A stretch of 64,000 nucleotides of DNA, from IMG/VR virus record IMGVR_UViG_3300027776_000009; one strand, 5' to 3'. Made by a program: the position numbers and the translations under genes. Positions 1,978 to 28,448 of the stretch are shown one piece after another; positions within the stretch are counted from its first letter, which is position 1; every line of letters starts with the position of its first letter. Under the pieces are notes generated by a model. That model had not been told where the DNA came from. It searched no databases and saw only the letters and a list, made by a program, of their open reading frames with translations. The stretch comes from a virus. Its lineage: Duplodnaviria; Caudoviricetes.

Positions 1978-4020
1978 GTGGGATTCTTTCGCCGCGCTAT
2001 CGGAATGATCACTGTAGAAGAAGTGGGTGGGGTCATTACGGTGTATAACGTCCCCACCCGTACCATTCATAAGGACATCAAAACCATCTGGGCGACCAGC
2101 CGCATTGGAAGCTATCTCTTTATTGACTTTACCGATTCCTCGTTCCGCATTCCGAGCTTCTTTGCGTTGGAGTTCGAGAAAATCGTTGAGACAATTCTGG
2201 CTTCTAATGCCCGAGATTCTTCACCCAGAGCCCTGCGTCGGATTCTGGAAGAGCTCCGGGAAAGTACCTGGCTGGCGCGCATCAATCAACCCCATGTTCC
2301 TCCGTTGGATCTGACGCATCTCAATGAGATCAAGTTTGACTTGCTGCCGCATCAGATGGACTTTCTGAAGCGATACATGTACATCAAACCCCGTTACAAC
2401 CTACGGGGCGCGCTGCTGATGGTACCGCCTGGAGGTGGTAAGACGATTTCAGATATCTCCATTGCCGTGTGCGCCAAAGCGGAGATTGTCTACATCGTCT
2501 GCCCGAAGAATGCTGTTAATGAAGTCTGGCGAAAGACACTGCTCAATGACATGTCGGTCCCTCAGACTGTCTGGGTGGCTGCTGATGGGAAACCCCTGGA
2601 TCCCGAAGCTCGGTGGCATATCTTCCACTACGAGACCCTGAATCAAGCCGTAGCGCTGACACAACGCGCTCATGGAAAACGAGCCGTGGTCATTCTGGAT
2701 GAGTCCCACAACTTCAACGACATCAAGTCGCTACGTACCGATCTCTTTTTGACTCTGTGTCAGAAAGCAGAACCTACGGACATCGTCTGGGCGTCGGGGA
2801 CTCCGGTGAAAGCCATGGGTCACGAAGCGGTTCCTCTGCTGCGCTCAATTGACCCGCTCTTTACGCCTGATGTAGAGATGCGATTCAAGAAGATTTTTGG
2901 TGCTGACTCTAGTCGTGCCTTGGACATCCTGAACCATCGCTTGGGGATTGTTTCCTTTAAAGTCCCTAAGTCGAACTTCATGTCCGAGAAACCGATCATT
3001 AATGATGTCACGGTTACGATCCCCAATGCGGTGCGGTATACACTGCCGTACATCAAAGAGGTCATGATCAAGTACATCAAAGAGCGTATGGATTTCTACA
3101 CCAAGAATCGTCCGCAGTATGAAGCGATGTACTACAACTGTCTGCGTGACTACGAGCGCACGATCCGGTCCTCGGATGAGCGTGAGAAATACCGCGTCTA
3201 TACGGACAACGTCAAGACCTTTATCAAGTACGGATTTGACGCGCGTACCATGGGACCTCAGGCACTGTACTGTAACCGCTTTGAAAAGGAACACATCCTC
3301 CCGGTGTTGTCGCAATCTCAGCGTAAACCTTTCATTGACGCGAAGTCTGTCGTGAAGTACGTGGAGCTCAAAGTACGCGGCGAGTGCTTGGGGCGTATTC
3401 TGTCCAAAGAGCGCGAGCAGTGCCATATCGAAATGGTAGCTAGCGTGGACTTTGAACAGTACATTGACACGGCAGAAAAGAAGACGTTGGTCTTTACCAG
3501 CTATGTGGGGGTGGTTGACACAGCACATGCGCGTCTGCAAGGTCTTGGGTACACGCCGCTGCGTGTCTATGGCGATACAAACAGTGAGCTCCAGAGCATT
3601 GTCAAGCAGTTCAAAGAGAATGAGGATATCAATCCCCTCATCGCGACGTATCAATCTCTCTCCACGGCTGTTCCTTTGATCATGGCGAATAACCTGATCA
3701 TGTTGAACTCCCCGTTCCGTTACCACGAGCAAGAGCAGGCTATCTCTCGCTGTTTACGTTTGGGTCAGGACAAAACAGTAACGGTCTACCGCGTGTTCTT
3801 GAATACGGGTAAGGTCCCTAATCTGTCTACTCGATCTGAAGACATCAACGAGTGGAGTCGACAGCAGGTGGACGCTATTATTGGGATTGACAGCAGCACT
3901 GATATGGGTTTCGGTATGGAAAGTATCGAAGACAGTCTTTACTGTGTTGATCCGCCCCATGTGGAACCTGTTACAGGTCAAGCATCTGACTACCGTAAGC
4001 CAGCATCCGCTAGCTGGTAA
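1978..4020 (+). CDS. SNF2/SF2 DEXH helicase
   Basis: Walker A PPGGGKT, DESH, SGTP, motif VI QAISRCLRLGQ. GTG start with SD GAGGAG. Confidence 0.9.
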   Translation: MGFFRRAIGMITVEEVGGVITVYNVPTRTIHKDIKTIWATSRIGSYLFIDFTDSSFRIPSFFALEFEKIVETILASNARDSSPRALRRILEELRESTWLARINQPHVPPLDLTHLNEIKFDLLPHQMDFLKRYMYIKPRYNLRGALLMVPPGGGKTISDISIAVCAKAEIVYIVCPKNAVNEVWRKTLLNDMSVPQTVWVAADGKPLDPEARWHIFHYETLNQAVALTQRAHGKRAVVILDESHNFNDIKSLRTDLFLTLCQKAEPTDIVWASGTPVKAMGHEAVPLLRSIDPLFTPDVEMRFKKIFGADSSRALDILNHRLGIVSFKVPKSNFMSEKPIINDVTVTIPNAVRYTLPYIKEVMIKYIKERMDFYTKNRPQYEAMYYNCLRDYERTIRSSDEREKYRVYTDNVKTFIKYGFDARTMGPQALYCNRFEKEHILPVLSQSQRKPFIDAKSVVKYVELKVRGECLGRILSKEREQCHIEMVASVDFEQYIDTAEKKTLVFTSYVGVVDTAHARLQGLGYTPLRVYGDTNSELQSIVKQFKENEDINPLIATYQSLSTAVPLIMANNLIMLNSPFRYHEQEQAISRCLRLGQDKTVTVYRVFLNTGKVPNLSTRSEDINEWSRQQVDAIIGIDSSTDMGFGMESIEDSLYCVDPPHVEPVTGQASDYRKPASASW

Positions 4021-5455: not shown

Positions 5456-7933
5456 TTATGAGATTTCCACATGTTGGTTGTAGGTCTGTGGTAGGTTCAA
5501 GATGTTGGCTGTGTTAGTCACTAACACCTCGACCCCTTGGAACGCCCCGTGCATGTGAAAGTAGTGAGAGATCATAAACAATTGCGAACACCGTTTGGTT
5601 TCCACAAACTGTTTAATGAACATGATGATGTTGGAGCGATGCAGTTCATCAAAGGTGATAGCCACCTCATCCAGATACAGAGGGTGATCCTCTAGACCCG
5701 AATACAGACTAACCACCAGCTTGAAGGCTAGATTAACCATCGCTACTTGAGACGCTGACCCGTGCTTAATGTCGCCGTCGCGCTGAGTCTTCCCTTTAAC
5801 TGAGAAGGGGAACTCGTAGGTCAGTTCGGACTTACTGTCTTCAGGACACGGGAGTACTTTCAGATCCGATGTCCACACCTGTGCAATGATAGCATTGAGT
5901 TGATCGGTAAAGACCTCCACAAACCCCTTCATCATCTCAGCGATCAATCCATCAGTCGGCGATAGTTCCTTAACCAAAATAGCGTAAGCCTCTTGGTTCT
6001 TAACCGCTTCGTCGTAGCTACGCTGTAAATCCGCCACTAAAGTAGCCGCATTACGCGCCTTATTGAGGGCGGCTTCCGCAGTCGCCAACAGGATCTGGTT
6101 TGAATGTATATCCTTGTCCAATTCTGCATTACGAATCGCTCGTACCAAGTCATGTAAGGTTTCATCAAGCGTATCGTGCTGAACATTCAACTCATCGGTC
6201 TTAGCCTGTATGAATTGAACCCAGCGACGATAGTTCAGGACCTCATCGAGTTCGGCTTGTGACATCTCAACATCGATAAGATCTTCCTCCAGAGAACCTA
6301 AGAGTTCGGCAAGATACGATTCCAACTGTCCCGACTTAGCTGTCTCGGTGGATCGCAGTTGGTCCACAGTGGTCCGTATATCCTTGATCTGGTGCGCAAT
6401 GTGATCAGCATCTATCAAACGCGATAAATCAGCTCGCCAGGCAACAATCGCAGCAATACCTGCCTTAGGTGAGGCACCTCGATCCCATACCGACCCAATC
6501 GCTCCCCACAGAGACTTCAGAGCGGGGTGTTGTCGGATGATTGCATTGAGACGATTGACGCATTCCCGATACATGCGGTGTTCATCGAAGAATGTCGAGA
6601 GCGACGTTTGCTCCTTCTCCAACCGTGCCGTTGTATTCTCATTATCAATCAAGTAATCACGAATGCTCTCAACATCGCCATTGTTGACACCGGGTTTCCA
6701 CAGGTAGCCACACTTGGGGCAGTTGATGTGCTCGATCTTTTCAAGATGCATCAGTCGGTGCTCAGCTTTAGTACCATCACGTCGCAGTTGATCAAGACGC
6801 AATCCAAGGCTATCAAATGCCTGCTGAGCCTCCTTAACCGCCTCTTCTGAGAACCGATACCCGCTGTTTACTGGCATCGTGCTCAGGATGTCGTTCAGAT
6901 CGATCTGTAAGGCCTCTGTTTCGCGTAATAACTGTTCAGCCTGAGGTAGGTAGCGTCTGTCCTCAGGCAGGGCTTCTAGGGCCTCTGCGTGAGTCTTAAG
7001 CAACGCAGCGAGTTTCTCCTCAAGTTCCTGAACGTTTCCGGCAGACGCCATCTTTAGCGTTTCAACGGCCTGATGGATTCTACCCGCTTCGGTTTGTGTC
7101 CGTTCACAACGCGCTTTGGACGCACTCAGATGCTCACGCAGTCGGAGCTCATGCGCTGCCATATTGTGAAACCCTACCTGTCGCAGCCCAACGGGGGTTG
7201 CTTTATGTTGATTCAATATGGCATCCGCGAGTTTTTCACACTCACGCAGGGTTTGCTGATAGAGATTTTCAGCGCGCTGGAGGGGTGGTACGTTAGGTTC
7301 TCGGGATCCTAGATAGATGTTGAGTTCACGTACCAGTGTTCGTGTCTCTTCTTCCATCTTAGCAATGTCTTCTAGCGAGGGGAGACGAGTTACTTCCTCA
7401 GCCAAACGCTTAGCCAGATGTTTTACCACGCCTTTGGTATCTCGATGGATAGTCCGCAGCCGCTCCCAAATCCCTAAGGCATAACTCATATCGCTCCCAG
7501 AGAGCCTCATCAGCCACGACCGACGCTCCAAAGCAGGCATTAGTGTAAAGCTATCGATGTCCAGTAGGACATCCATGAGTTTCTGATCCAGACCCAAATG
7601 TTCCTGTATGAGAGCTTTCTGAACCGTTGCGGTTCGTCCGGGATTTAGAGCTTCCCCATTACGCGTAAACGTATGACTTACTCCTTGTGTAAAATCAGAC
7701 AGGAGTACGTACTGACTTCCCTTATCCGTAAACTCGATTTGCTTACACCCCCCGGGGTGATAGTCCGCTTTGTTAGCCGGCATCGGAGTCAACTCACGAA
7801 GCAAGGTGGTTTTACCCGATCCGTTGGTTCCAATAATCAATTGATGGACTGCCTCGGGTCGGTAGTCAACTTCATGGATCCCCATGAGGTCCAGCCAAAT
7901 ATTCCCTTTCAGATAGAGTCGTGTAATAATCAT
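5456..7933 (-). CDS. sbcC: SbcC/Rad50-like SMC ATPase
   Basis: Walker A GTNGSGKT, long coiled coils, CPKC zinc hook, GSASQ signature, LYLDE Walker B, SH loop. Start moved to MIITRL (SD GAGGAAGG). Confidence 0.9.
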   Translation of the reverse strand: MIITRLYLKGNIWLDLMGIHEVDYRPEAVHQLIIGTNGSGKTTLLRELTPMPANKADYHPGGCKQIEFTDKGSQYVLLSDFTQGVSHTFTRNGEALNPGRTATVQKALIQEHLGLDQKLMDVLLDIDSFTLMPALERRSWLMRLSGSDMSYALGIWERLRTIHRDTKGVVKHLAKRLAEEVTRLPSLEDIAKMEEETRTLVRELNIYLGSREPNVPPLQRAENLYQQTLRECEKLADAILNQHKATPVGLRQVGFHNMAAHELRLREHLSASKARCERTQTEAGRIHQAVETLKMASAGNVQELEEKLAALLKTHAEALEALPEDRRYLPQAEQLLRETEALQIDLNDILSTMPVNSGYRFSEEAVKEAQQAFDSLGLRLDQLRRDGTKAEHRLMHLEKIEHINCPKCGYLWKPGVNNGDVESIRDYLIDNENTTARLEKEQTSLSTFFDEHRMYRECVNRLNAIIRQHPALKSLWGAIGSVWDRGASPKAGIAAIVAWRADLSRLIDADHIAHQIKDIRTTVDQLRSTETAKSGQLESYLAELLGSLEEDLIDVEMSQAELDEVLNYRRWVQFIQAKTDELNVQHDTLDETLHDLVRAIRNAELDKDIHSNQILLATAEAALNKARNAATLVADLQRSYDEAVKNQEAYAILVKELSPTDGLIAEMMKGFVEVFTDQLNAIIAQVWTSDLKVLPCPEDSKSELTYEFPFSVKGKTQRDGDIKHGSASQVAMVNLAFKLVVSLYSGLEDHPLYLDEVAITFDELHRSNIIMFIKQFVETKRCSQLFMISHYFHMHGAFQGVEVLVTNTANILNLPQTYNQHVEIS

Positions 7934-10286: not shown

Positions 10287-10362
10287 GGTAAACTCCGGTC
10301 TATGTTATGACTGCCCCTGAACGGGCCCATATTCTTAAGTTTGCAAAGAGAGTGAGGTGGCT

Positions 10363-12162
10363 ATGCCATTCCCTGTACCGTTTCTTTATCCGTACGATCC
10401 GACGGGTACGCAAGCCTCAAATAAGATCACGGCTGAACACCACGTGGTCACACCGCCTGTGAACAACGCTAAGGCAAACTTCATTGTGCCGACCGCCTCT
10501 CCATTCTTCGGAGACTCCATGGTAGTTCGCACAGGTCCTCTTCCGACCGACCCATTGCTGGTCCGGGGAGTGGATTACGATTTGGTGCTCCAATTCATCG
10601 AAGCATCGAACGTTCTCTATACACAGATTTACGGTGCGATTGTTTTTAACGACCATGGCTTCAATCAGGACGTTTATCTGACCTACCAAACCATGGGGGG
10701 TCCGTACGTTGCCAATGACTACACCTTCGTGGAAAACTTTGACCAGTCCCTTTACCATATCCGGTTGGTTTCATGGACTCAGATCGTAGGATTGACATCC
10801 GGCTTTCCTCCGCTTCCGCACCCTACCCCGGCACCTGATCTGACCGGTATGGCGGAATTGGTTGCCAAGATTGAGCAACTCATTACAGTCATCACGGCGA
10901 ATGGTTCAGTAGCGGGTCTATCTTCCGCATTGACAAACCACTTGTCCACCCTTAGTGGCGCACACGCCCCTAGTGCTGTGGGGCTTGGGAATCTACCCAA
11001 CTACGGTGTCGCAACACTGTCGGAGTTGCTAGCTTGGGCAAACAATAAACTGGTTGTACCAAGCCTGCTGCAAGGGCTCTTGCTTCCTCAGAATCCCACG
11101 GCTGGAAAAATATTAGTGGGAGATGGCGCTGGGTTTGTGCTATCGGATCTTGAGAATGCACAACCTCGCAGCAATGCGTTCATGTACATGAGTACGCTGA
11201 TTGATCTGAAACTCTGGGTGCGCAAGCCTGGACTGAAGATTGAAGGAGTCATGCGTTTCGGTGATGCCGCGTTAAATATTGCTAGCTTAGGGCTCGGGAC
11301 GACCTGGTTGGTCTACGCGTTCTGGACCGGAACTGCGATCCAGCTTGAAGTCAGCACAACAGATTACGCAACTAGCCCGACAGATCCTGATGTCTTTATC
11401 AAGATTGGGGATCCGACTCGTACCTTGGTTGGAATGATTTTCAAGAACGATGATAGCATGTGGCACACCCGTTCCGTCTATGTAGACAACCGGCAATACA
11501 CGGCACTGTTGACTGACCCTTATACCCATCCCGAATGGATTAAGCCCTATGAAGGGAAGAAGTTACCGGCGGATTATCCTTACTGGACAGGAACCAGTTC
11601 CGAGTGGTCAGATCCAACGAGTGTTAGCAACGTTACGGATATGGAAATCCCTGTGCTGATGTTTGCCAACGAAATCGTTCGAGTGCGCTATAACGCTAAC
11701 ATGAACTACAGCACCTTGGGAGAGGGATCTCCCGCTCAGGGCACCTTCGATATTGTTACACAATTGACCACCCCCACGGTTCCTAGAAGCAGTTCTCCGG
11801 AAGTTATTGGTGCTCGCCATACACTCAATCACCCTTACGGCAGCAGTGAGGACACGGTCTACTACACGGAAGCCTCGGGGGTCGTTGAGTTGTATGGTGC
11901 GAATAACTCACGAGTCTGTTACGTTACGATGCGAGCTGCAAAGTCTGTAGATCCTGACGCTGCCGGGAACATGAGTAACTGGAACAGCATCTTTGCATAC
12001 TACGCACCGTCGTCCTATACATGGCTGTATCACAGCTTGGGTTTCAAACGTAACAACGGTGTGTTCGGCTCACCCCTGATCAGTAGCAAGGAACATACCT
12101 ATCTTGCCATTGAGCACGATGTTGAGAGTTTCAACCTGCGGGCGTTTGCTAACCATTTGTGA
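10363..12162 (+). CDS. Virion structural/tail fibre protein (phiKZ gp145/146-like N-terminus)
   Basis: YPYDPTG..SNKI..EHH N-terminal domain, YQTMGG and a HAPSAVGLGNLPNY fibre motif. Confidence 0.75.
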   Translation: MPFPVPFLYPYDPTGTQASNKITAEHHVVTPPVNNAKANFIVPTASPFFGDSMVVRTGPLPTDPLLVRGVDYDLVLQFIEASNVLYTQIYGAIVFNDHGFNQDVYLTYQTMGGPYVANDYTFVENFDQSLYHIRLVSWTQIVGLTSGFPPLPHPTPAPDLTGMAELVAKIEQLITVITANGSVAGLSSALTNHLSTLSGAHAPSAVGLGNLPNYGVATLSELLAWANNKLVVPSLLQGLLLPQNPTAGKILVGDGAGFVLSDLENAQPRSNAFMYMSTLIDLKLWVRKPGLKIEGVMRFGDAALNIASLGLGTTWLVYAFWTGTAIQLEVSTTDYATSPTDPDVFIKIGDPTRTLVGMIFKNDDSMWHTRSVYVDNRQYTALLTDPYTHPEWIKPYEGKKLPADYPYWTGTSSEWSDPTSVSNVTDMEIPVLMFANEIVRVRYNANMNYSTLGEGSPAQGTFDIVTQLTTPTVPRSSSPEVIGARHTLNHPYGSSEDTVYYTEASGVVELYGANNSRVCYVTMRAAKSVDPDAAGNMSNWNSIFAYYAPSSYTWLYHSLGFKRNNGVFGSPLISSKEHTYLAIEHDVESFNLRAFANHL

Positions 12163-12188: not shown

Positions 12189-14177
12189 ATGCCATTTTCC
12201 CCTTTTGGATACCCCCTGGATTTGACAGGGGTAGCTCCCACAAACGCGATTGTGGGAGATGTCACCACGTTCACCTCACCCGAGACGCGTGCCTTTGTTC
12301 CCTCCGCCGGACCGTTCTATGTCTTCAACATGGTTCTGCGAAACAGCGTCACCGGCATTATCTTAGCACCTAAGGTCGACTATTTGGTAGAGTACTTACT
12401 CCCCGAACCTAGTATGGCCTCAGGTAAGGAGGTCGGCGGTATTATCCGGGTCATTAATACAGACGTCCCTGGTGTTTCCATGGATTATCACGTCATCGGT
12501 GGGTCTTACGGTAATACCGTAACCATGTTACAGACCTACCTGGATGATAACCCCATTCTTCCCATCAATCCTATCTGGGGGGAAATCCCTGACGCCCCTG
12601 TGCAATACCCGCCCGCGGCGCATCTCACTGACATGAAGACAGTGTTTGGACTGGGTCCTCTGGTTAATGTCATTGAGGGGGTCCGGCAGGCACTGCTCAG
12701 CGGGGATCAAGCAGCATGGGGAGCGGTTTACAACTATCTGAACCTCAGGTTAACCGAGGAACATCTCTCCATATTGAGTGATGTAACAGCGCTTCAGCGC
12801 CCTGTCCCCATGGGTCCTGTAGCAGGTCAGGTACTGATGTCGCTTTCCCCGACTCCTGCTACGTACGGCTGGGGGGATTACGTCCCCATTCCTCCGGGGT
12901 CGGCCAAGGTGCTTATCTCTACAGGTACCGCTCGCGGAGACTGGGTGTGGGGAGATCCGTCAGCGGCGTCACTTCCGACACCTCCGACCACCGGTCAGGT
13001 CCTGCGGTCCACGGGCAACATGCCGGGGGATTGGGATTGGTCACCGAGCGGAATCGAACCTCGGTTTGATGTCTTCATGTACGCGGTTGATGAAGACCAT
13101 ATTCGGATTGCGCCTCGTAACGGAGGTTACTTCTGGGTCAATGGGGTTAACCGTCAATTGGTGAACCCTATTACCCTGACGCTAACACTCAGCACGGATA
13201 TGGTGCTGTACTCGGTCTTCCTACAGTGGAACGGAACAGAACTGGTTCCTTACGTTGTTAATGTGCTGAACGCTACGGATACCCCTCGTATGGGGCCTAA
13301 TGGCGTTGTTTGCAGCTACGATACCAACATCGACGTGTATCACTACAACACTGTCTTTGTAGGTCACTATATTCGCATGCCTAACTCGGTTGAGCTGACC
13401 TATCCTAATATGGGGAAGCTCTACGTCCGCAGTTATCACCACGACGCCGGCACCACCGTTGCAGGTTCCATTCTGGAAGGAGCTACCCTGAAGCGCGGTC
13501 CACGACCGTTTTCACGCAATGGAACACGGCTCGATACCGCACTCTATCTGGGGGAGCGTTTGCAAGGTGTTGCAAACGGTGACTGGGGAGTAGGGTGGAA
13601 CTACGGCGAAGTTCCCTATCTGGGTGATAACGGTAATTTAGGAAACCCGCCGTATGACGCGGGTCCTAGTACTGAAATGGTCCTCGGAACGATTGTCTGG
13701 CCCTTTGAACAGATCCGAGTGGCAGGGCATTTCAACTGCTACGCCTCTAACGACGTGGACTCACTCATCGCCTTACGAACATGGGGGTTTGGTCACCACA
13801 CCTCCGGCACCCCCACCATTGGATGGGCAACCATACTGGAACGCGCTGGGTTGGGTTGGGATGACTACGATGGCCACGGCTCACGGATTCATAAAGGATC
13901 TTTAGAAACCGTGTTCTGTACAGACATGGTGTATACGGACTCTGGTGAGGACTATACCGCTAGGCACCATCTGGCGTCTTTCCGAATCTTTGACATGATC
14001 TGGAACGATAAGGTCTACATGCATGGTCAAGGTGATGCCGCATGGAGCGGGTCTGTTAAAGGCGCTGGTGCTTCACGACTCATTGTCCAACCCATCACAC
14101 TGACACGCTGCCTCACAGAAACCACCTGGCCGGGCAACACTGGCTTGGGTCTTGAAATCGGACCCGCTTTCTATTAA
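12189..14177 (+). CDS. Virion structural/tail fibre protein, paralog of 10363-12162
   Basis: YPLDLTG..TN N-terminus, YHVIGG and three GQVL.S.G...W.W repeats. SD AAGGAG. Confidence 0.75.
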   Translation: MPFSPFGYPLDLTGVAPTNAIVGDVTTFTSPETRAFVPSAGPFYVFNMVLRNSVTGIILAPKVDYLVEYLLPEPSMASGKEVGGIIRVINTDVPGVSMDYHVIGGSYGNTVTMLQTYLDDNPILPINPIWGEIPDAPVQYPPAAHLTDMKTVFGLGPLVNVIEGVRQALLSGDQAAWGAVYNYLNLRLTEEHLSILSDVTALQRPVPMGPVAGQVLMSLSPTPATYGWGDYVPIPPGSAKVLISTGTARGDWVWGDPSAASLPTPPTTGQVLRSTGNMPGDWDWSPSGIEPRFDVFMYAVDEDHIRIAPRNGGYFWVNGVNRQLVNPITLTLTLSTDMVLYSVFLQWNGTELVPYVVNVLNATDTPRMGPNGVVCSYDTNIDVYHYNTVFVGHYIRMPNSVELTYPNMGKLYVRSYHHDAGTTVAGSILEGATLKRGPRPFSRNGTRLDTALYLGERLQGVANGDWGVGWNYGEVPYLGDNGNLGNPPYDAGPSTEMVLGTIVWPFEQIRVAGHFNCYASNDVDSLIALRTWGFGHHTSGTPTIGWATILERAGLGWDDYDGHGSRIHKGSLETVFCTDMVYTDSGEDYTARHHLASFRIFDMIWNDKVYMHGQGDAAWSGSVKGAGASRLIVQPITLTRCLTETTWPGNTGLGLEIGPAFY

Positions 14178-16962: not shown

Positions 16963-19900
16963 TTAAGGAAGTTGACGAACAGCCAACCTGAAATTGGACA
17001 GGGTTAACACCCCGGTGATTTCAACGATAGTCCCTTGAACATTGAATTGATCATTGGGGTCCAGCGTAACGTAACGCGAGAAACTGACTGGGTATTTCGC
17101 GAGCGTATCGGCGCAGTACACCGAGATATCAAACACCTGATCGCCCCCAAAGTCCAAATGAATAATCCCGGTAGCAACCCCTGCGGGGATACTCACCTCG
17201 GCGTATAAGGACACCTCGTAGCGCCGCCGGAAAATCTCCATGGTGTTTGAACGAATGTACGTTCCTGCCCGGGTAAAGCCCTTCCCGTGAGTTTGTGCGG
17301 ACGCTGACGTCATGTCTACCAGTGTGTTCGCCGTGCTTATCGTCACCGTGACATCATTGACATCGTGATACTCCGTCAAGAAGCACTCATTCTCAACATC
17401 GACCGAGTGATCACCCAGATGATCGTAGGCAGCCCCAGCAATGCTGAACATCTTAGCGGGTAGGGGGCTATATGCATCACCGGGGTAGACAGACACATTC
17501 CGCAGCCGGAGTTTTCGTGCAGGGATATTATCATTGGAGGTGTAGATGGCGTCAAAATCAATGACTCCAGCGGGAGGAGAAACTCCGGTGTACCGCACAT
17601 CCATATTGGATAAAGTTAACCGCCCATCGGAATCATTCATGTAAACTGACATGAACGCGGTATCGTTCGCGGTCCCCTGCACCCCATCGACGATAACATC
17701 ACCGTAGGACGTCATGCGTATTGGGTTCGTAATCGTGTTACAGACAATATTCTTGGCAATAATGCCTGCACCACCGGCTAAGTCCAAGGGATCCGTGGTG
17801 TCAAACACGAGGTTCTCAAGTCGCGTATATGCTTGAGACCCCGTGTTAATAACCGCCGGAGAGCTCCCGTCGGCAGAAAGAGTCAGGTCACGAAGAGTCA
17901 GTATTGCGCCCAACGGGGTTGATATGATGGTGCCCGAGGTGCTTCGAATAACCGCATTTGGAAGCCCCATGATTTCCACCCGCTGACCAGATACAGAGTT
18001 GCACCGAAGCATCTCGATACCTAGATTGACATCGCCAACAACCAAATACTTACCCGGCTCAACCAACCACGTGTTTGTGTCGACCAGATTGGTCGAGAAA
18101 TCACCCAACCGCCTCACCAATTTTACATTTGGGTAAAGGCGTTTCAGGGCGCCGTATAACGGGTTCAGTTGGACGTAATTCTGATAACCCGCACTGACGG
18201 CTCCGCTGGAGTCGTACTTTACGTTAGCCAAATCTTCGTAGTAGTTGACTTCAATACACGGAAGACTTGGATCGGTTCTTGGTAACAGCAACCCACTCGG
18301 ATTTCCAGCCCCTAACTCGATTGCTGAGTTATCAGCAATATCAATAACGACGGCTGACGTCATGGGGTCCAAAGAATTTCTCTGGAACTCCGCCACAATG
18401 TAGTTGTCATGCCCTATGCGTATTCGTCCGCCAGTGTCCGCGTTGACGCCATTATTGAAGAAAATGGAGCAGTTTTCGTGTACTCGCAAGCAGTCGCTTA
18501 CAACATCACCTCCAGCCCAGGCTGCGGTCACTGTCGCCCCTATGTTTACCATGGGTGAAAAGGCATCAGCATTGTATCGCAGTTCGCCAACAAAGGAATC
18601 CAGCATCAAGCCATCTACCTTGCAATCGAACCAGAAATGCGACAGCCCAACCCCCCATTGAAAACTGCTGTGGGGGGTAACTGGGTGCGTGTAGGCGCGA
18701 TATGTGGACAAAGTAATGTTGTTGGCAAACAACGCGTAAACCTTGTTGGGCGTTATATAACCAAGGTTGGCACGAGTCAGCGATAGTTCCCCATACTGAC
18801 CGGTAAAACCGCGATCATCAAGAACCAGTCTCTTCTTAAGAGAGGGGGGTAATGTGATCAGGTACTCATACGCTGCATCGAATGTCGCAAAAGAAGCGGA
18901 GGCCGGAAGAGCTTGCTGAGGACTAACGGTGTGACAATACACCACGACTTCGCTCGTGCTTTGCTGTGCACGTTGTGCAAGAGTGGTTACGCCGGCGATG
19001 GCTGCGTTCAGGTTCTGCTCTATGGTTTGCTGACTGCTTAGCAATTCCGCAGATACAGCATCCTCGTCCATGTACAGCGTAAATGAAGGAGTACCCGTCA
19101 CGCTGTCAATATAGACAATTGCACTATCCCCTACCGTGTGCCCATAAGGCATTGGTAAGATCAGTGGCGTAAAGAGAGGGTCCAGCCACGTTTTCAGCAG
19201 CATTCCTTGGGCGACATTAGGTGGGAAAACCGCGTGGGTAACAATATCAACCGCTGGCTGAATCGGCTGCCCTGGAAAGTAGTTATCCCAGTTTGGCTGA
19301 GTCAACCCTGCGGTTCCCGCAGTTGTGCCAGAAACCGCATAGCTAGGCGCGTCAAGCGTCAGCCGCGGAGTTATCCCGATAGGCTCGTACCCGTTTCCAA
19401 CATCTAGCGTAACTACGACGTAGAACACTGCCAGCTCTGGATTAACGGGTCCGTCCGTATAGATGTTCGTGGTAACAATATCGTGCTGGGTGTTATCGGG
19501 TGACACGCTGACTGCTGCGAACGAGAGCTCGTTTGTCGTACGACCCACAACAAGCAGTGTCTTACGCCCCAACTCAACTGCCAGATTCTGCGTACTGATG
19601 TTGTGATAAATCTGCGATCCACCACCCGGATAAGGGAAGGAGTTGTCAGCAATCGAAGTATCAAGCGTTGTCTGTTGGTTTTGTCCGAATGCAGTATCAG
19701 TAATGAGTGCCGATATACCCCCAACCCCTGCTCCCGTGTAAGCATCGCGTAATGCAGTAGCGGAGTATGACGCTGGAGCAAGCATCATACCGACTTGATA
19801 GACTGCGCCGTTTGGTGCTGTGGTAATCTCCCATCCAAAACGAAATGTTTTGGATGCAGTAATGAAATCTGTAACAAGATCTGTTTTGACAACCCCGAAA

Positions 19901-20235
19901 CCGGCTGATCCATACCCCAGGGACGGTTCGGCTCCGGTCACATCAAACACGAACTCACCAGTCTGGCCGTCAACAATAATATCGACGCTATCAATGACAG
20001 ATGCTGTTAAAATCGTTGTGTTAATAGTGGGAGTAATGTCCCACAGAGGAATGGTCTGACTACCTCCTCCTCCTCCTCCGGTGCCTAACTCAACAATACT
20101 TTCAACACCGTTGTCCTTCTTGATAAACATTTTACCATCATAGGTATTGATGGCTACTTCACCCAAGGCAATATCCCCAACGGTGGGAATTTTTCCGGGG
20201 ACTGAACTACGCTTTAAACGAACGGGGGTTGCCAT
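16963..20235 (-). CDS. Large fibre/adhesin (1090 aa) with Mtd_N-like N-terminal domain and C-terminal beta-helix-like region
   Basis: N-terminus VRLKRS...LGEVAINTYDGKMFI, a Gly6 linker and periodic LTLRDL/TRLENL/LTLSNM/LRLRNV beta-helix rungs. Confidence 0.75.
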   Translation of the reverse strand: MATPVRLKRSSVPGKIPTVGDIALGEVAINTYDGKMFIKKDNGVESIVELGTGGGGGGSQTIPLWDITPTINTTILTASVIDSVDIIVDGQTGEFVFDVTGAEPSLGYGSAGFGVVKTDLVTDFITASKTFRFGWEITTAPNGAVYQVGMMLAPASYSATALRDAYTGAGVGGISALITDTAFGQNQQTTLDTSIADNSFPYPGGGSQIYHNISTQNLAVELGRKTLLVVGRTTNELSFAAVSVSPDNTQHDIVTTNIYTDGPVNPELAVFYVVVTLDVGNGYEPIGITPRLTLDAPSYAVSGTTAGTAGLTQPNWDNYFPGQPIQPAVDIVTHAVFPPNVAQGMLLKTWLDPLFTPLILPMPYGHTVGDSAIVYIDSVTGTPSFTLYMDEDAVSAELLSSQQTIEQNLNAAIAGVTTLAQRAQQSTSEVVVYCHTVSPQQALPASASFATFDAAYEYLITLPPSLKKRLVLDDRGFTGQYGELSLTRANLGYITPNKVYALFANNITLSTYRAYTHPVTPHSSFQWGVGLSHFWFDCKVDGLMLDSFVGELRYNADAFSPMVNIGATVTAAWAGGDVVSDCLRVHENCSIFFNNGVNADTGGRIRIGHDNYIVAEFQRNSLDPMTSAVVIDIADNSAIELGAGNPSGLLLPRTDPSLPCIEVNYYEDLANVKYDSSGAVSAGYQNYVQLNPLYGALKRLYPNVKLVRRLGDFSTNLVDTNTWLVEPGKYLVVGDVNLGIEMLRCNSVSGQRVEIMGLPNAVIRSTSGTIISTPLGAILTLRDLTLSADGSSPAVINTGSQAYTRLENLVFDTTDPLDLAGGAGIIAKNIVCNTITNPIRMTSYGDVIVDGVQGTANDTAFMSVYMNDSDGRLTLSNMDVRYTGVSPPAGVIDFDAIYTSNDNIPARKLRLRNVSVYPGDAYSPLPAKMFSIAGAAYDHLGDHSVDVENECFLTEYHDVNDVTVTISTANTLVDMTSASAQTHGKGFTRAGTYIRSNTMEIFRRRYEVSLYAEVSIPAGVATGIIHLDFGGDQVFDISVYCADTLAKYPVSFSRYVTLDPNDQFNVQGTIVEITGVLTLSNFRLAVRQLP

Positions 20236-20263
20236 ATGGCTGACTCCTGGCTATTTAGCCGTC

Positions 20264-20298
20264 AAAAAATCCAGAGGGTGGCTGGGCCACCCTCTGGA
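20264..20298 (-). terminator. Intrinsic terminator between shaft and tip genes
   Basis: 13-bp stem TCCAGAGGGTGGC/GCCACCCTCTGGA followed by TTTTTT on the minus strand. Confidence 0.8.
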
Positions 20299-20311
20299 CA
20301 CGTGTAAAGGG

Positions 20312-21289
20312 TCAGAAAGAACCGCCGTCGATAGCACCATTAATCCAATCAGTTCCGTCAAACATCAACACCTCACCAGTAGCGGGAGTATTGATGACAA
20401 CATCGTCAAGATCGTCAATGACTACAGTCTGGCCTTCCCAGAAGCCGTCTCCGGAATACCGGAGGAATTGACCGGTAGTGCCGGGAATCGTTTCCCCAGG
20501 ATCAACGTTTTCCCAAGAGGAAATGGTGGAGTTCCACCGCAACAAATGGTTATTACCGATAGCCGTAAGACTCACGTTGGAAAGATTTTCCAACGGAGTA
20601 GCCACGATCAGCGCGTTAACATCGTCTGTAAAACCGGCGATCGCATTGGTATCCAGCGGGATATTGGTCCAATTGGTACCGTCAAAACTGAGGACGTCAC
20701 CCGCGATCGCCCCAGTGATAACACCGAGGTCACTGATAGCCGCCGGAACGTTAAGAACCCCCGACCAATCCACAGAACTCGCAGTCCCCGCGGTGTACTC
20801 CACGTAACCATCCGCTTGGTCCAGTTTGGTGTCATCCACCACGAAATAAAGAAGACCAGTGGCAGTTTCTTTGACAGTATCGCCAACCTGAACTTCGGCG
20901 GTAGTCAGTGCGTAACGGGCCGCGGTGTTAACCACCGGCACCAGTCGCTCAATGGCGGCCGCAGGCAGGCGCGCAATGTTCAGCGTACCACTGGTGATGT
21001 TGGATGCGTTGGTTGTGTCGACGTTCTGAACGTTGCCCAAGCTGATGGTCGATTTGGTAATAACGACAGCGCCTGTTTCGCCGTTGACGCTGTCCACCGT
21101 GTTGACCTGGGCGCCATCGGCGATTCCCGCCAGTTTATCGTGGTCGGCCTTACCGCCGATACCGTAGACGTTGCTGCCGTTACCAATAAAGAGTGTGCCG
21201 CTGGCGTGGCTATAAGCCAGCTCGCCGTCTTGCAGGGTAGCGGGGGCGGCGGTGACGGCGCTGCGTTTGATGCGAATAACGTTGGACAT
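20312..21289 (-). CDS. Fibre protein (325 aa), candidate polymerising shaft subunit
   Basis: N-terminus IRIKRS...GELAY...LFIG, VDSVNGETGAVV and LGNVQNV fibre motifs, G.VL.FDGT.W.N repeats and C-terminal IDGGSF. Codons are C-ending-rich. Confidence 0.8.
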   Translation of the reverse strand: MSNVIRIKRSAVTAAPATLQDGELAYSHASGTLFIGNGSNVYGIGGKADHDKLAGIADGAQVNTVDSVNGETGAVVITKSTISLGNVQNVDTTNASNITSGTLNIARLPAAAIERLVPVVNTAARYALTTAEVQVGDTVKETATGLLYFVVDDTKLDQADGYVEYTAGTASSVDWSGVLNVPAAISDLGVITGAIAGDVLSFDGTNWTNIPLDTNAIAGFTDDVNALIVATPLENLSNVSLTAIGNNHLLRWNSTISSWENVDPGETIPGTTGQFLRYSGDGFWEGQTVVIDDLDDVVINTPATGEVLMFDGTDWINGAIDGGSF

Positions 21290-21330
21290 GATGGTGCCTT
21301 TTAAGGAAACGTTGGGGTGATGAAAGGTGT

Positions 21331-21690
21331 TTAGTAGGTTCCGCCGTCAAGATCTTGATTACCGTAGTATTTCCAAAGACCGGCGAAATCGTCAACAGAT
21401 GGAGCGGGGATAGCCGTGGGTGAACCTAAAATCGCCAGCCAGTTTTTCTGGGGGTCGAAGGTCGTGGTGAAGCCGGTGCCGACGGCGTCGTCGGCATACC
21501 CAATGTAAATGAAGGTATTGACAGATGCAAGGACCGTTCCACGGAGCTCCTCGATATCGATTCGATAAACTCCAGCGTCAGAACCCACTGGTCGTTGAAC
21601 AAATACCAGATCCGTATCTATCAACCCTCCTGGTAATGGACTGAGTTGTTTGACGTCCTTGGTATTGGCCAAGGGTATGGTGTATGACAT
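21331..21690 (-). CDS. Small fibre adaptor (119 aa) ending LDGGTY
   Basis: N-terminus resembles that of 26968-27945. YIGYADD..GTGF motif and a C-terminal DGGxY. Confidence 0.7.
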   Translation of the reverse strand: MSYTIPLANTKDVKQLSPLPGGLIDTDLVFVQRPVGSDAGVYRIDIEELRGTVLASVNTFIYIGYADDAVGTGFTTTFDPQKNWLAILGSPTAIPAPSVDDFAGLWKYYGNQDLDGGTY

Positions 21691-21691
21691 A

Positions 21692-22222
21692 TCAATCGAG
21701 CCTCATAAAGTAACCACCGAGATCGAGGAGAGTCTGGTCATCCACTCGCAGTATCAACGAATCATCAGGAGGTAATGCTAAGTGCATTAATAAAACCGTG
21801 GCTTCACCTACCCATCCTATACTGCCCGGAGATGCGGTAAAGGTGTAGTCTCCCAGTCCGACCAGAGATTCATTAAGAACATCCTCAGTCTCTAGATTAA
21901 TCCCGCACTCTTCCAACAGTACGGGAAGGAGCTCGTGTGATTCAGTTAGCCCAGGTCTGACCAGTTCGGGCCAGGTCTCCCCAATGGCGTCAGTCAGGTC
22001 AATTCTCCGATAAAACAGAGTTCGTTTACCCGAAAAACGTTGGGTGTCTGTAGGCCTTATCGTGATCTTCGTATTACGCGGATCGTAAGACGAGTTCGGG
22101 AGCGGGTTTTCAAATACCAGATCGTCCACCGTAAACGGCTGTCGATTCTGTGGATTGCAGGTGTTGATGTTGATGACGAGCCTAACACGCCCGGTCAGTG
22201 ACAGATCGGTCCCATCAGACAT
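21692..22222 (-). CDS. phiKZ gp131-like baseplate/fibre anchor domain protein
   Basis: RNTKI...YRRIDL...SHELLP...GINL...D...ASPGSIGWVG pattern. Paralog of 27945-28448. Confidence 0.75.
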   Translation of the reverse strand: MSDGTDLSLTGRVRLVININTCNPQNRQPFTVDDLVFENPLPNSSYDPRNTKITIRPTDTQRFSGKRTLFYRRIDLTDAIGETWPELVRPGLTESHELLPVLLEECGINLETEDVLNESLVGLGDYTFTASPGSIGWVGEATVLLMHLALPPDDSLILRVDDQTLLDLGGYFMRLD

Positions 22223-26967: not shown

Positions 26968-27945
26968 TTATTCATCAAAATAAGGACTGGTGTACGGAAC
27001 GTAATCCCCTAAGAGATTCAGCCGAATCCATGACAGATCCACGGACTTTGTTGTTAACTTGAAGACCAAGATGTCCCCCTTTTCAAACACTAATCGCTCT
27101 GACGGAACTAGCGCTTCTGCATCATTGAAGACGAGGGTCCCCGGCATTCCGGCGCCTACGGCTACGGTGTTAAAACTGATAGTCCCAACCGCTGTCATCG
27201 TACCGGTTACCCCCTTGGTCTTGTAGATGGTAACCACGTTGGGTTCAGTGATATTCCCATTACAGAGGGTCCTATGAAGAACCGCCGGGGGCTTAAGACG
27301 ATCATTCGGGAGGGTGTGTTGTAACGGGATTTCAAAATCCCGAATCGCAATGTAACTCCCGATCTCTTGATCCAGAAACAACGGAGCACTAGCGCCAGCC
27401 GTTAGTTCCAAGTGATCAATGTCCTGGTCCATTTTGATTCGGACTAAACGAAGTACGCCGCCTACCTTCTCAGCAAAGTTGTTCCCAGAGGTAAAGTTGC
27501 TAATAACAACCCACAAACTACCTTCATGGTAGAGAATATCCGGGGGGGTTATTTGGTCATCAACCGTACGCTCCGTGAAGAAAGCCGTTGTAGGTTTCCA
27601 CAGTTTGACCTGACCAAACGCCTGAAGTGTATTGCTGACCTGAGTCAAGCTATTACTGACCTCGGTCACCGCGGCTGTGACAAACTCTGTCGTAGCGATT
27701 TGGGTGTTATTGGTTCCGGGATCCGGCGTCGGGGCCTCTGGAGTACCGTTGAATGAAGGAGAGTCGATAGGCGCAAGACCTTCACGGGCAGCTTGTATCA
27801 CCATGTCGACGCTGACTTCCTGATCTCTTTCTTCAGCGGGGGCGGTCGCACGATACAATAACAAGGTATCGGTGAGTTGCAGCTCCGTCGCAATCGGTAA
27901 CTCTCCTTGCGTTACAGTGTTCGTAATGGGAATCGAGCCAGCCAT
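26968..27945 (-). CDS. Tail fibre/adaptor protein (325 aa)
   Basis: Classical fibre repeat APIDSPSFNGTPEAPTP...NNTQIATTEFV. Confidence 0.75.
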   Translation of the reverse strand: MAGSIPITNTVTQGELPIATELQLTDTLLLYRATAPAEERDQEVSVDMVIQAAREGLAPIDSPSFNGTPEAPTPDPGTNNTQIATTEFVTAAVTEVSNSLTQVSNTLQAFGQVKLWKPTTAFFTERTVDDQITPPDILYHEGSLWVVISNFTSGNNFAEKVGGVLRLVRIKMDQDIDHLELTAGASAPLFLDQEIGSYIAIRDFEIPLQHTLPNDRLKPPAVLHRTLCNGNITEPNVVTIYKTKGVTGTMTAVGTISFNTVAVGAGMPGTLVFNDAEALVPSERLVFEKGDILVFKLTTKSVDLSWIRLNLLGDYVPYTSPYFDE

Positions 27946-28448
27946 TAGCTTCTCCTCAGGTATAAGTTACCGACTTTGATTAAACGTTCATCGACAGTGC
28001 GGATCAAGGTAAACCCCAAATCACCAGTACCTCCTAATTGAATCTGAACGTCGCCAATAAAGCCTAAACTATCCGGCGTGGCCTTTAGTACATAGGCGGT
28101 ATCCGTCAGGTCTTCATCGACGATGTCTGAAGGGGTGAGGTTGATTCCGTAATCTGTCAAGATAGCGGGTAAGAGCTCATGTGAACGAGTAGCGCCTTCG
28201 ACAGTCACCACGGTATCTTGGGCGATCAGATCACTTAATGCGTCTCGGGTGTACTCCATGACTAGGTTATTGCGAATCCCGTAGATGTCATAGACCAGGA
28301 TCTGCACCCGCGTGTTATTACCCTCGGACACCCAAGGAGTTGGGTGCATGATTGACAATGTGTTTAGATCCAAATCCTTTTGGAACTTTCCCGCGATGAG
28401 CTTGGCACGTATCCGCTCTTCTGCGGTCAGTAAGTAGTTTTCAGCCAT
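27945..28448 (-). CDS. phiKZ gp131-like baseplate/fibre anchor domain protein
   Basis: NTRV...YTRDAL...SHELLP...YGINL...DIVD...ATPDSLGFIG pattern. Confidence 0.75.
   Translation of the reverse strand: MAENYLLTAEERIRAKLIAGKFQKDLDLNTLSIMHPTPWVSEGNNTRVQILVYDIYGIRNNLVMEYTRDALSDLIAQDTVVTVEGATRSHELLPAILTDYGINLTPSDIVDEDLTDTAYVLKATPDSLGFIGDVQIQLGGTGDLGFTLIRTVDERLIKVGNLYLRRS

What the first reader, a model, noticed from the sequence alone, without database searches (positions are those of the whole stretch)
16963..22222. Candidate 'plug-and-socket' self-polymerising virion fibre: anchor, adaptor, repeating shaft, tip adhesin
Seen: four consecutive genes have complementary termini. 21692-22222 is a gp131-like anchor. 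21331-21690 (119 aa) ends LDGGTY and lacks the KRS domain. 20312-21289 starts with an Mtd_N-like domain (IRIKRS..P..L.DGELAY...LFIG) and also ends IDGGSF. 16963-20235 starts with the same domain (VRLKRS..P....LGEVAINT.DGKMFI) but has no DGGx(F/Y) tail. The 20312 gene has capsid-like C-ending codon bias and is followed by a U-tract terminator (20264-20298) that would lower tip expression. Inference: the C-terminal DGGx(F/Y) peptide is a plug for the N-terminal KRS domain. The adaptor would nucleate, the shaft would polymerise head-to-tail at high copy, and the tip would cap the chain. This is pilus-like base/shaft/tip logic, with length set by the shaft:tip ratio through terminator read-through.
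Basis: partly seen in the sequence, partly recalled or inferred. Interest (0 to 1): 0.85.

Follow-up and report, generated by a model that had tools for sequence, protein, structure and literature searches.

The report
Segmented phage tail fibre with conserved joints
Four neighbouring genes of a giant phiKZ-like phage encode an anchor, adaptor, connector and tip of a tail fibre whose pieces appear to join end to end through a short C-terminal motif and a matching N-terminal domain, the same joint as T4 gp36-gp37 and one that recurs across thousands of phages, but nothing supports a self-polymerising shaft.

Summary
**Observation: confirmed.** All four minus-strand ORFs, their terminal motifs, the 14-bp hairpin plus T6 tract, and the capsid-like codon bias of the 325-aa gene are real.

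**Plug-and-socket idea: strongly supported by comparative evidence.**
- 73% of ORFs ending in D(G/A)Gx(F/Y) are followed by a gene starting with the KRS domain, against 4% of other ORFs.
- 72 of 78 socket-selected genes have a plug-ending gene upstream.
- The socket domain is strictly N-terminal.
- Natural fusions place a plug-like "TIDG.." directly before an internal socket.
- T4 gp36 (ends DFGYY) and gp37 (socket HMM E 1.6e-16) form the same pair. T4 literature states that gp36 binds the N-terminal region of gp37.

**The window's layout is the commonest grammar:** plug-only adaptor, then type-A socket with plug, then type-B socket without plug.

**Self-polymerisation: not supported.**
- Plugs feeding type-A and type-B sockets differ systematically (p about 1e-12).
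- They are never identical within a phage (0 of 35 trios).
- Chains hold one connector.
- The T4 precedent is described as one gp36 trimer joined to one gp37 trimer.
- Terminator-like hairpins between connector and tip are rare elsewhere (3 of 35).

**Still unexplained:** the connector's high-expression codon bias and the downstream hairpin are both conserved in two relatives.

**Verdict:** an ordered, segmented fibre on a DUF7941 anchor. Physical contact at the joint is inferred, not shown.

The parts
21692..22222 (-). Anchor: a stand-alone 176-aa gp131-like N-terminal domain protein (DUF7941), the presumed baseplate-side base of the fibre.
   Evidence: Pfam PF25613 at E 5e-23; phrog_2935 and phrog_1037, both virion structural. 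In phiKZ, six such domains form the fibre base under gp130. Conserved as a 176-aa gene in relatives L236 and L238.
21331..21690 (-). Adaptor, 119 aa, with no socket. Its C-terminal plug LDGGTY is encoded at 21334-21351.
   Evidence: Orthologues end IDGGVY and LDGGNF. It corresponds to the 'plug only' first element of the commonest chain grammar.
20312..21289 (-). Connector, 325 aa. It has a type-A socket (residues 1-44, 21158-21289), a central domain shared with many fibre proteins, beta-hairpin repeats, and the C-terminal plug IDGGSF (20315-20332).
   Evidence: Socket HMM E 3e-17. Of 15 homologues with this N-terminus, 14 end in D(G/C)GxF, against 0 of 105 without it. Family alignment A2. The AF2 monomer model shows hairpins but is weak overall at pLDDT 53. 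C3 0.397 and A3 0.080.
20263..20299 (-). GC-rich hairpin (14-bp stem) plus T6 tract, starting 13 nt after the connector stop codon. It looks like an intrinsic terminator.
   Evidence: Fold energy -35.4 kcal/mol for the whole 76-nt spacer. A hairpin of different sequence sits at the same position in L236 and L238, but without a clean T tract.
20249..20260 (-). Conserved palindromic element GGCTAAATAGCC, between the hairpin and the tip gene's ribosome-binding site.
   Evidence: Nearly invariant in the window, L236 and L238, while the hairpin sequence varies. Only one other near-match occurs in the window. Function unknown; it could be a promoter or an RNA element.
16963..20235 (-). Tip, or distal subunit, 1090 aa. 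It has a type-B socket (residues 1-47, 20095-20235), no plug, and a long variable C-terminal part that is presumably the receptor-binding or depolymerase region.
   Evidence: Socket HMM E 7e-19. PHROG tail-fibre and long-tail-fibre-distal-subunit hits cover residues 1-55 only. The N-terminus matches gp37 of over 100 T4-like phages. Relatives share only the first ~56-69 residues. A pectate-lyase-like lead at 0.82 is not significant.

Best explanation
The cassette encodes one ordered, segmented tail fibre of a phiKZ-like jumbo phage.

**Proposed architecture**
- The DUF7941 protein forms the baseplate-side base.
- The 119-aa adaptor sits on the base.
- The 325-aa connector docks on the adaptor.
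- The 1090-aa tip docks on the connector and carries the variable receptor-binding part.

**Joints**
The last two joints are of one widespread type. The extreme C-terminus of the proximal protein, hydrophobic-D-(G/A)-G-x-(F/Y)-COOH, meets the roughly 45-residue Mtd_N-related N-terminal domain (I-K-I-K-R-S ... G-E-L-A ... L-Y/F) of the next protein. Gene order equals assembly order. This is the same joint as gp36 to gp37 in the T4 long tail fibre.

Two joint classes exist:
- plugs with N, A or other residues at position -2 feed type-A sockets (GELAY or AELAF);
- plugs with T, S or E at -2 feed type-B sockets (GE(L/V)AINTxDGK).

This would enforce the order adaptor, connector, tip and disfavour connector-on-connector addition.

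**Shown versus inferred**
- Shown: motifs, synteny, covariation, fusions and homology to gp37.
- Inferred: direct physical contact, trimeric state and the role of position -2.
For: - **Family-level co-occurrence.** 14 of 15 KRS-starting homologues end in D(G/C)GxF, against 0 of 105 others.
- **Plug-selected loci.** Among 80 loci found through IDGGTF-stop, 80 of 110 plug-ending ORFs are followed within -40 to +260 nt by a socket ORF, against 65 of 1646 other ORFs (odds ratio 65, p 4e-72). All 108 socket hits begin within 25 residues of the ORF start.
- **Socket-selected loci.** Among 80 loci found only through the tip-type socket, 72 of 78 have a plug-ending ORF upstream. 54 of 80 show the grammar no-plug, plug-only, A plus plug, B-or-C socket; in 48 of these the last socket is type B.
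- **Window grammar.** The window's trio is the commonest grammar in both sets. It recurs in unrelated phages: L026, L030, L031, and the SPbeta-like L032.
- **Family size.** The socket profile hits 30,300 representative clusters. 149 of the top 150 hits are N-terminal, and none of these tip-type proteins has a plug.
- **Natural fusions.** P0126-P0129 and P0243 have plug-like TIDG.., YIDG.., AIDG.., TISG.. or TIDA.. directly before an internal socket.
- **T4-like phages.** T4, PG7 and EcS1 gp36 end DFGYY or DFGTY, and gp37 starts with the socket; T4 gp37 residues 6-47 score E 1.6e-16. The T4 review states that trimeric gp36 binds the N-terminal region of gp37.
- **Covariation.** Plug position -2 is T in 30 of 35 pairs feeding type-B sockets and in 2 of 37 feeding type-A sockets (p 1e-12). 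The adaptor and connector plugs are never identical in 35 non-redundant trios.
- **Close relatives.** L236 and L238 keep the whole cassette, while the tips diverge completely after the socket.
Against: - No structure or binding data exist for the joint. PDB sequence and profile searches found nothing, and only a weak monomer model could be made.
- Counts are not phylogenetically independent, even after de-duplication at 70% identity.
- The window's own plugs (adaptor T at -2, connector S at -2) fit the two classes only loosely.
- In locus L030 the adaptor and connector plugs are both DIDGGTF over the last seven residues, so specificity cannot rest on the last residues alone.
- About a quarter of plug-ending ORFs have no socket gene directly downstream.
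- The connector's capsid-like codon bias, conserved in relatives, suggests more copies of connector than tip. A simple 1:1:1 fibre does not explain this.
Confidence: 0.7

Rival explanations
1. The 325-aa protein polymerises head to tail, its own plug into its own socket. The adaptor nucleates the chain and the tip caps it. Length is set by the connector-to-tip ratio through terminator read-through.
For: - The connector carries both a socket and a plug.
- Its codon bias is second only to the capsid gene, and this is conserved in relatives.
- A strong hairpin follows its stop codon in the window and in both relatives.
- In L030 the adaptor and connector plugs are identical over seven residues.
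Against: - Plug class covaries with socket class, p 1e-12.
- The connector's plug (S at -2) belongs to the class feeding type-B sockets, whereas its own socket is type A.
- 0 of 35 trios have identical adaptor and connector plugs.
- Chains carry one connector, whose length varies from 166 to 1028 aa, so length looks genetically encoded.
- Terminator-like hairpins in the connector-tip gap occur in only 3 of 35 trios.
- The relatives' hairpins lack a T tract, and a conserved element follows them that could be a separate promoter.
- T4 gp36 is described as a single trimer per fibre, joined to one gp37 trimer.
Confidence: 0.07
2. There is no direct plug-socket contact. The DGGx(F/Y) end is a C-terminal folding or trimerisation cap of a common fibre repeat, and the KRS domain is a generic attachment domain that binds elsewhere, such as the baseplate or the side of another fibre. 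The fibre genes merely cluster, giving separate or branched fibres.
For: - The plug follows a beta-hairpin repeat and ends where a new repeat would begin.
- Many plug endings are preceded by the common fibre motif L-x-N-K-T-I.
- About 27% of plug ORFs lack a downstream socket gene.
- Some sockets follow proteins without a plug.
- Branched fibres are known in other phages.
Against: - Clustering alone does not predict covariation of plug class with socket class.
- It does not predict the strict order plug-only, A plus plug, B without plug.
- It does not predict fusions that place the plug-like segment immediately before a socket.
- It does not fit the biochemically established binding of gp36 to the N-terminal region of gp37 in T4.
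- Tip-type socket proteins never carry a plug in the top 150 hits, as expected for a chain terminator.
Confidence: 0.15

Closest known systems
Bacteriophage T4 long tail fibre, distal half: the gp36 (distal connector) to gp37 (distal subunit) joint
   Same: The N-terminal domain of gp37 is homologous to the window's tip socket (HMM E 1.6e-16; tblastn hits in over 100 T4-like phages annotated as long tail fibre distal subunit). gp36 lies directly upstream and ends D-F-G-(Y/T)-Y, which shares D at -5, G at -3 and an aromatic last residue with the plug. Gene order equals assembly order. gp36 is known to bind the N-terminal region of gp37.
   Different: T4 has one such joint. The rest of its fibre (gp34 thigh, monomeric gp35 knee) uses other contacts, and gp36 has no KRS socket. 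The window has two consecutive joints of this type, with two socket subtypes, and a DUF7941 anchor instead of gp34 on gp9. The plug has G rather than F at -4.
phiKZ fibre base made of gp131-like N-terminal domains (Structural atlas of phiKZ, PMC13250141)
   Same: The 176-aa protein is a DUF7941 or gp131-like N-terminal domain. The window is a phiKZ-like phage, with a phiKZ-type major head protein and other phiKZ-type PHROG families.
   Different: In phiKZ the domain is fused to long C-terminal parts, for example the gp131 beta-propeller. Here it is a stand-alone 176-aa protein (with a 167-aa paralogue at 27945-28448), and the distal parts are separate polypeptides joined by plug-socket joints.
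Mtd_N (PF18454), the N-terminal domain of the Bordetella phage BPP-1 major tropism determinant
   Same: 23 of 54 aligned socket domains match Mtd_N (best E 8e-17), and the connector matches weakly at E 5e-4. Mtd is likewise a distal receptor-binding protein encoded directly after a fibre gene.
   Different: The window's two sockets do not reach the Pfam cutoff. The BPP-1 upstream protein Bbp9 ends ...ADLGGIA, which is only loosely plug-like. Pfam describes the domain but no partner motif.
   Same: Subunits have complementary termini, and there is a base, shaft and tip logic.
   Different: Pilus shaft subunits accept the strand of an identical subunit. Here the plug class that the connector carries differs from the class its own socket receives, and chains hold one connector. 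No evidence of polymerisation.

Membership tests
T4 gp36-gp37-type tail-fibre joint | The distal protein starts with the gp37-type N-terminal domain. | tested here: met
   The tip N-terminus hits gp37 annotations in T4-like phages. The socket HMM built around the window's domains hits T4 gp37 residues 6-47 at E 1.6e-16 and the window's tip and connector at E 7e-19 and 3e-17.
T4 gp36-gp37-type tail-fibre joint | The gene directly upstream encodes a protein whose extreme C-terminus is D-x-G-x-aromatic. | tested here: met
   Window: LDGGTY and IDGGSF. T4, PG7 and EcS1 gp36: DFGYY or DFGTY. 72 of 78 socket-selected loci.
T4 gp36-gp37-type tail-fibre joint | The proximal protein physically binds the N-terminal region of the distal protein. 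| not testable with these tools
   Known for T4 from the literature. Only single-chain prediction was available here.
T4 long tail fibre as a whole (gp34, gp35, gp36, gp37) | Presence of a gp34-like proximal subunit and a gp35-like knee protein. | tested here: not met
   Pfam and PHROG scans of the cassette and its neighbours give DUF7941 and generic fibre families, with no gp34 or gp35 families. The adaptor has no family hit.
Pfam Mtd_N (PF18454) | Score at or above the gathering cutoff of 26.3 bits. | tested here: not met
   The connector scores 20.4 bits at E 5e-4 and the tip has no hit. However, 23 of 54 aligned family members match, so these are divergent relatives.
DUF7941 / phiKZ gp131-like N-terminal domain | Pfam PF25613 above cutoff, in a phiKZ-like genome. 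| tested here: met
   82.4 bits against a cutoff of 27. The paralogue at 27945-28448 is 29% identical at E 1e-14. phiKZ-type head protein and other phiKZ-type PHROG families are in the window.
Self-polymerising (pilus-like) shaft subunit | The subunit's plug is of the kind accepted by its own socket, and copy number per fibre is variable. | tested here: inconclusive
   Comparative data argue against it: plug class covaries with socket class, and 0 of 35 within-phage plug pairs are identical. Binding and stoichiometry could not be measured, and the codon bias leaves room for it.
Intrinsic (rho-independent type) terminator | GC-rich hairpin directly followed by a U tract. | tested here: met
   A 14-bp stem plus T6 in the window. 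Relatives keep a hairpin but not the T tract. Activity with phiKZ-type RNA polymerases could not be tested.

The most novel reading that the evidence does not exclude
The 325-aa connector, made in excess (capsid-like codon bias, hairpin after its stop codon, both conserved in relatives), adds onto itself as well as onto the adaptor. The phage would then carry beaded fibres of variable length capped by the tip. That would be a polymerising virion fibre built from the widespread DGGx(F/Y)/KRS joint.
Probability: 0.07. Interest if true: 0.85.

Novelty: new variant of a known kind. Interest (0 to 1): 0.55.

Why it matters
If the joint works as inferred, a six-residue C-terminal signature and a roughly 45-residue N-terminal domain form a very widespread connector for building multi-part phage tail fibres. 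The socket is found in 30,300 representative protein clusters. It occurs in T4-like phages, cyanophages, small marine phages, SPbeta-like phages and jumbo phages.

This has three practical uses.
- **Annotation.** It gives a simple rule for which unannotated small genes are fibre adaptors or connectors, and in what order the parts assemble.
- **Gene boundaries.** It explains why receptor-binding tips can be exchanged wholesale at a fixed boundary: the tips of close relatives share only the socket.
- **Engineering.** It points to a defined splice point and a possible specificity position (-2 of the plug) for studies of fibre assembly in laboratory phages.

For phiKZ-like phages, it also shows that distal fibre parts can be separate polypeptides hung on a stand-alone gp131-like base.

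I found no description of the C-terminal motif in the searchable literature. That search covers open-access texts only.

Tried and rejected
- Megablast of the cassette against 50,697 phage records found no match. tblastn of the connector found only a partial central-domain hit.
- No whole genome is held for this window.
- The search for related loci with the 119-aa adaptor found nothing in viral contigs. Its homologue search gave only two relatives.
I replaced it with the single tip N-terminus.
- PDB sequence searches with the connector, tip, anchor and socket profile gave no meaningful hit, not even Mtd.
- The AF2 monomer model of the connector was poor (pLDDT 53, pTM 0.27). I did not use it for fold searches because the matches would be meaningless.
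- I ran no further search on a natural fusion protein. The tool returns no coordinates or contacts, so plug-socket packing could not have been read.
- The protein atlas search of the tip gave only sub-threshold pectate-lyase-like leads at 0.82.
- The idea that a terminator between connector and tip is a general feature of such cassettes is rejected: 3 of 35 trios.
- The idea that the GGCTAAATAGCC element is a recurring promoter in the window is not supported. It has one other near-match, and 3 of 100 shuffles do as well.
- The N-terminal similarity between the adaptor and the second module's fibre protein is positional but not significant (E 0.22).
- BPP-1 Bbp9 ends ADLGGIA, too divergent to count as a plug.

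Full report
**1. What is in the window**

The window comes from a phiKZ-like jumbo phage. It holds a phiKZ-type major head protein (phrog_3231, E 2e-151), a polymerase family protein (phrog_2943) and several phiKZ-type virion protein families. No tRNA genes are present, and no whole genome is held for it.

The four minus-strand ORFs of the finding exist exactly as described.

| Coordinates | Size | Features |
|---|---|---|
| 21692-22222 | 176 aa | Matches DUF7941 at E 5e-23 and virion-structural PHROGs |
| 21331-21690 | 119 aa | No family hit; ends LDGGTY |
| 20312-21289 | 325 aa | Starts VIRIKRS...GELAY...LFIG; ends IDGGSF |
| 16963-20235 | 1090 aa | Starts VRLKRS...GEVAINTYDGKMFIK; has no such end. 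PHROG tail-fibre hits cover only its first 55 residues or so |

A six-frame scan with a socket HMM and a plug regex finds these two sockets and two plugs and nothing else in the 64 kb.

[quoted passage not shown] That supports the anchor label.

**2. The terminal motifs are a family-level rule**

Among 120 proteins sharing the connector's central domain, 14 of the 15 that start with the KRS domain end in D(G/C)GxF. None of the 105 others do. The one exception comes from a 1.6-kb contig and is probably cut.

Unrelated phages repeat the gene arrangement.
- **L026:** a 568-aa fibre protein ending IDGGTY is followed 77 nt later by a protein starting MSTTIKLKTS...GEIALN.
- **L030:** a 137-aa protein ending ...DIDGGTF, then a 292-aa KRS protein ending DIDGGTF, then a 214-aa protein with a tip-type socket.
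- **L032 (SPbeta-like):** a YomF_N protein ending ISGGEF, then two KRG or Mtd_N proteins. The first of these ends IDGGTF.

**3. Unbiased tests**

- A socket HMM found 108 ORFs, all with the domain in the first 25 residues.
- 80 of 110 plug-ending ORFs are followed within -40 to +260 nt by a socket ORF, against 65 of 1646 other ORFs. The odds ratio is 65 and p is 4e-72.

*Socket-selected loci.* I then took 80 loci selected only through the tip-type socket.
- 72 of 78 have a plug-ending ORF directly upstream.
- 54 of 80 have the chain no-plug gene, plug-only protein, type-A socket with plug, then a type-B or type-C socket (type B in 48 of them, which is the window's four-gene layout).
- The same grammar dominates the first set.

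*Size of the family.* A profile of 54 socket domains (A1) hits 30,300 representative clusters at E up to 1e-3.
- In 149 of the top 150 hits the domain starts at residue 1-5.
- These tip-type proteins range from 64 to 1562 aa, and none ends in a plug.

**4. Contiguity and the known precedent**

Several proteins carry a second, internal socket. In each it is directly preceded by a plug-like segment: NKTIDGED before NTILLKRS, YIDGNEP before NKIYLKRS, AIDGNT before TTIQLLR, KTISGNS before NTLVLRNS, and FTIDANT before SNKLLLKRS. Plug and socket are therefore neighbouring parts of one unit, which is usually split between two polypeptides.

The tip-type socket matches the N-terminus of the annotated long tail fibre distal subunit in over 100 T4-like phages.
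- In PG7 and EcS1, gp36 ends IQDFGTY and EIDFGTY, and gp37 starts with the socket.
- In T4 itself, gp36 ends VQDFGYY, and gp37 residues 6-47 match the HMM at E 1.6e-16.
- The T4 review states that trimeric gp36 binds the N-terminal region of gp37 and forms the proximal part of the distal half-fibre (PMC3004832).

The window's joints are therefore of the gp36-gp37 type.

The socket also grades into Pfam Mtd_N: 23 of 54 members match, with a best E of 8e-17.

**5. Ordered fibre or polymer?**

*Evidence for an ordered fibre.*
- In 84 non-redundant pairs not selected through the plug, plugs feeding type-B sockets have T at -2 in 30 of 35 cases (T, S or E in 34 of 35).
- Plugs feeding type-A sockets have T in 2 of 37, mostly N or A, and often A at -4. 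Fisher p is about 1e-12.
- In 35 non-redundant trios the adaptor and connector plugs are never identical.
- Chains hold a single type-A connector, whose length ranges from 166 to 1028 aa.

These facts point to two joint classes that fix the assembly order. Fibre length would then be encoded in the connector gene.

*The window's clade follows this loosely.*

| Locus | Adaptor plug | Connector plug |
|---|---|---|
| Window | LDGGTY | IDGGSF |
| L236 | IDGGVY | IDGGEF |
| L238 | LDGGNF | IDGGSF |

*Caveats.*
- The counts are only partly independent.
- In L030 the two plugs are identical over seven residues.

**6. Expression signals**

The hairpin plus T6 tract after the connector gene is real.
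- Relatives L236 and L238, whose connectors are 64-65% identical, keep a strong hairpin of different sequence at the same place but lack a clean T tract.
- A nearly invariant element, GGCTA(A/T)ATAG(C/T)C, follows the hairpin, and then the ribosome-binding site.
- That element is not a common motif in the window.
- Across phages, terminator-like hairpins in this gap are rare: 3 of 35.

The connector's codon bias (high C3, low A3) is second only to the capsid gene. It is conserved in both relatives, whereas the anchor, adaptor and tip genes are ordinary.

This suggests the connector is made in larger amounts. It is the one observation that the simple 1:1:1 model leaves unexplained.

Frequent horizontal replacement of tips could explain the tip's weaker bias, since the tips share only their first ~56-69 residues. 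It would not explain the ordinary bias of the anchor and adaptor.

**7. Structure**

No solved structure matches by sequence or profile.

The AF2 monomer model of the connector is weak overall (pLDDT 53). It does predict the socket (residues 10-50, pLDDT 70-83) and each C-terminal repeat as beta-hairpins.

In the family alignment, the terminal F sits where a new repeat would begin. The joint may therefore complete a repeat across two chains. This is an inference only.

**8. Verdict**

- The plug-and-socket reading is well supported by comparative evidence, and it is the T4 gp36-gp37 joint generalised.
- The self-polymerising, length-by-read-through reading is not supported. I put it at about 7%.
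- The locus is a new variant of a known kind: a segmented tail fibre with two consecutive gp36-gp37-type joints on a stand-alone gp131-like base.
- The wider rule appears undescribed in the searchable literature. That rule comprises the motif, the grammar and the two joint classes.
The two anchors are clear paralogues (E 1e-14), but the N-terminal resemblance of the two following proteins is not significant (E 0.22).

Noticed in passing
window 26968-28448 (minus strand): There is a second anchor module. A 167-aa DUF7941 paralogue (27945-28448) is 29% identical to the 176-aa anchor at E 1e-14. It is directly followed by a 325-aa tail-fibre-repeat protein (26968-27945) that has neither a KRS socket nor a DGG plug. 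Its first 33 residues resemble the adaptor's N-terminus only weakly (E 0.22). This suggests a second fibre type on the same kind of base.
   Followed up: partly
loci L051, L062, L068, L079, L085, L098; proteins P0152, P0164, P0177, P0184: Many tip-type (type-B) socket proteins end in a second conserved C-terminal motif, roughly (F/K)AIA-x-(A/G)I-(A/V)-(L/F)-G. Some are only 66-69 aa long, that is, a socket plus this tail. They may be caps, or may carry a further docking signal.
   Followed up: no
window 20249-20260; L236 about 5905-5920; L238 about 3768-3780: The palindromic element GGCTA(A/T)ATAG(C/T)C between the hairpin and the tip gene's ribosome-binding site is nearly invariant in three relatives, although the neighbouring hairpin sequence has changed completely. 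It could be a promoter or a protein-binding site.
   Followed up: partly
L030 7565-7978: The adaptor of this unrelated small phage carries two plug motifs in tandem at its end (...VIDGGTYEGLGDTDIDGGTF).
   Followed up: no
window 10357-12162 and 12189-14177 (plus strand): Two adjacent large proteins (601 and 662 aa) share an N-terminal domain of about 170-230 residues. It matches phrog_2163 (virion structural) and phrog_13857 (tail protein), while their C-terminal parts differ. They may be further fibre or baseplate-periphery paralogues.
   Followed up: no
window 16963-20235, residues 70-1090: The tip's C-terminal part has no Pfam or PHROG hit. Language-model neighbours include pectate-lyase-like beta-helix phage proteins, but at 0.82, below the reliable range. 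A depolymerase tailspike is possible.
   Followed up: partly
proteins P0131, P0136, P0138, P0143, P0152, P0177, P0183, P0218: The second half of the socket profile (P..P..GD(L/M)(W/Y)(F/Y)(N/D)T.D..LY.Y) recurs internally, sometimes in tandem; P0138 has three copies. The socket is therefore related to a common fibre repeat.
   Followed up: no
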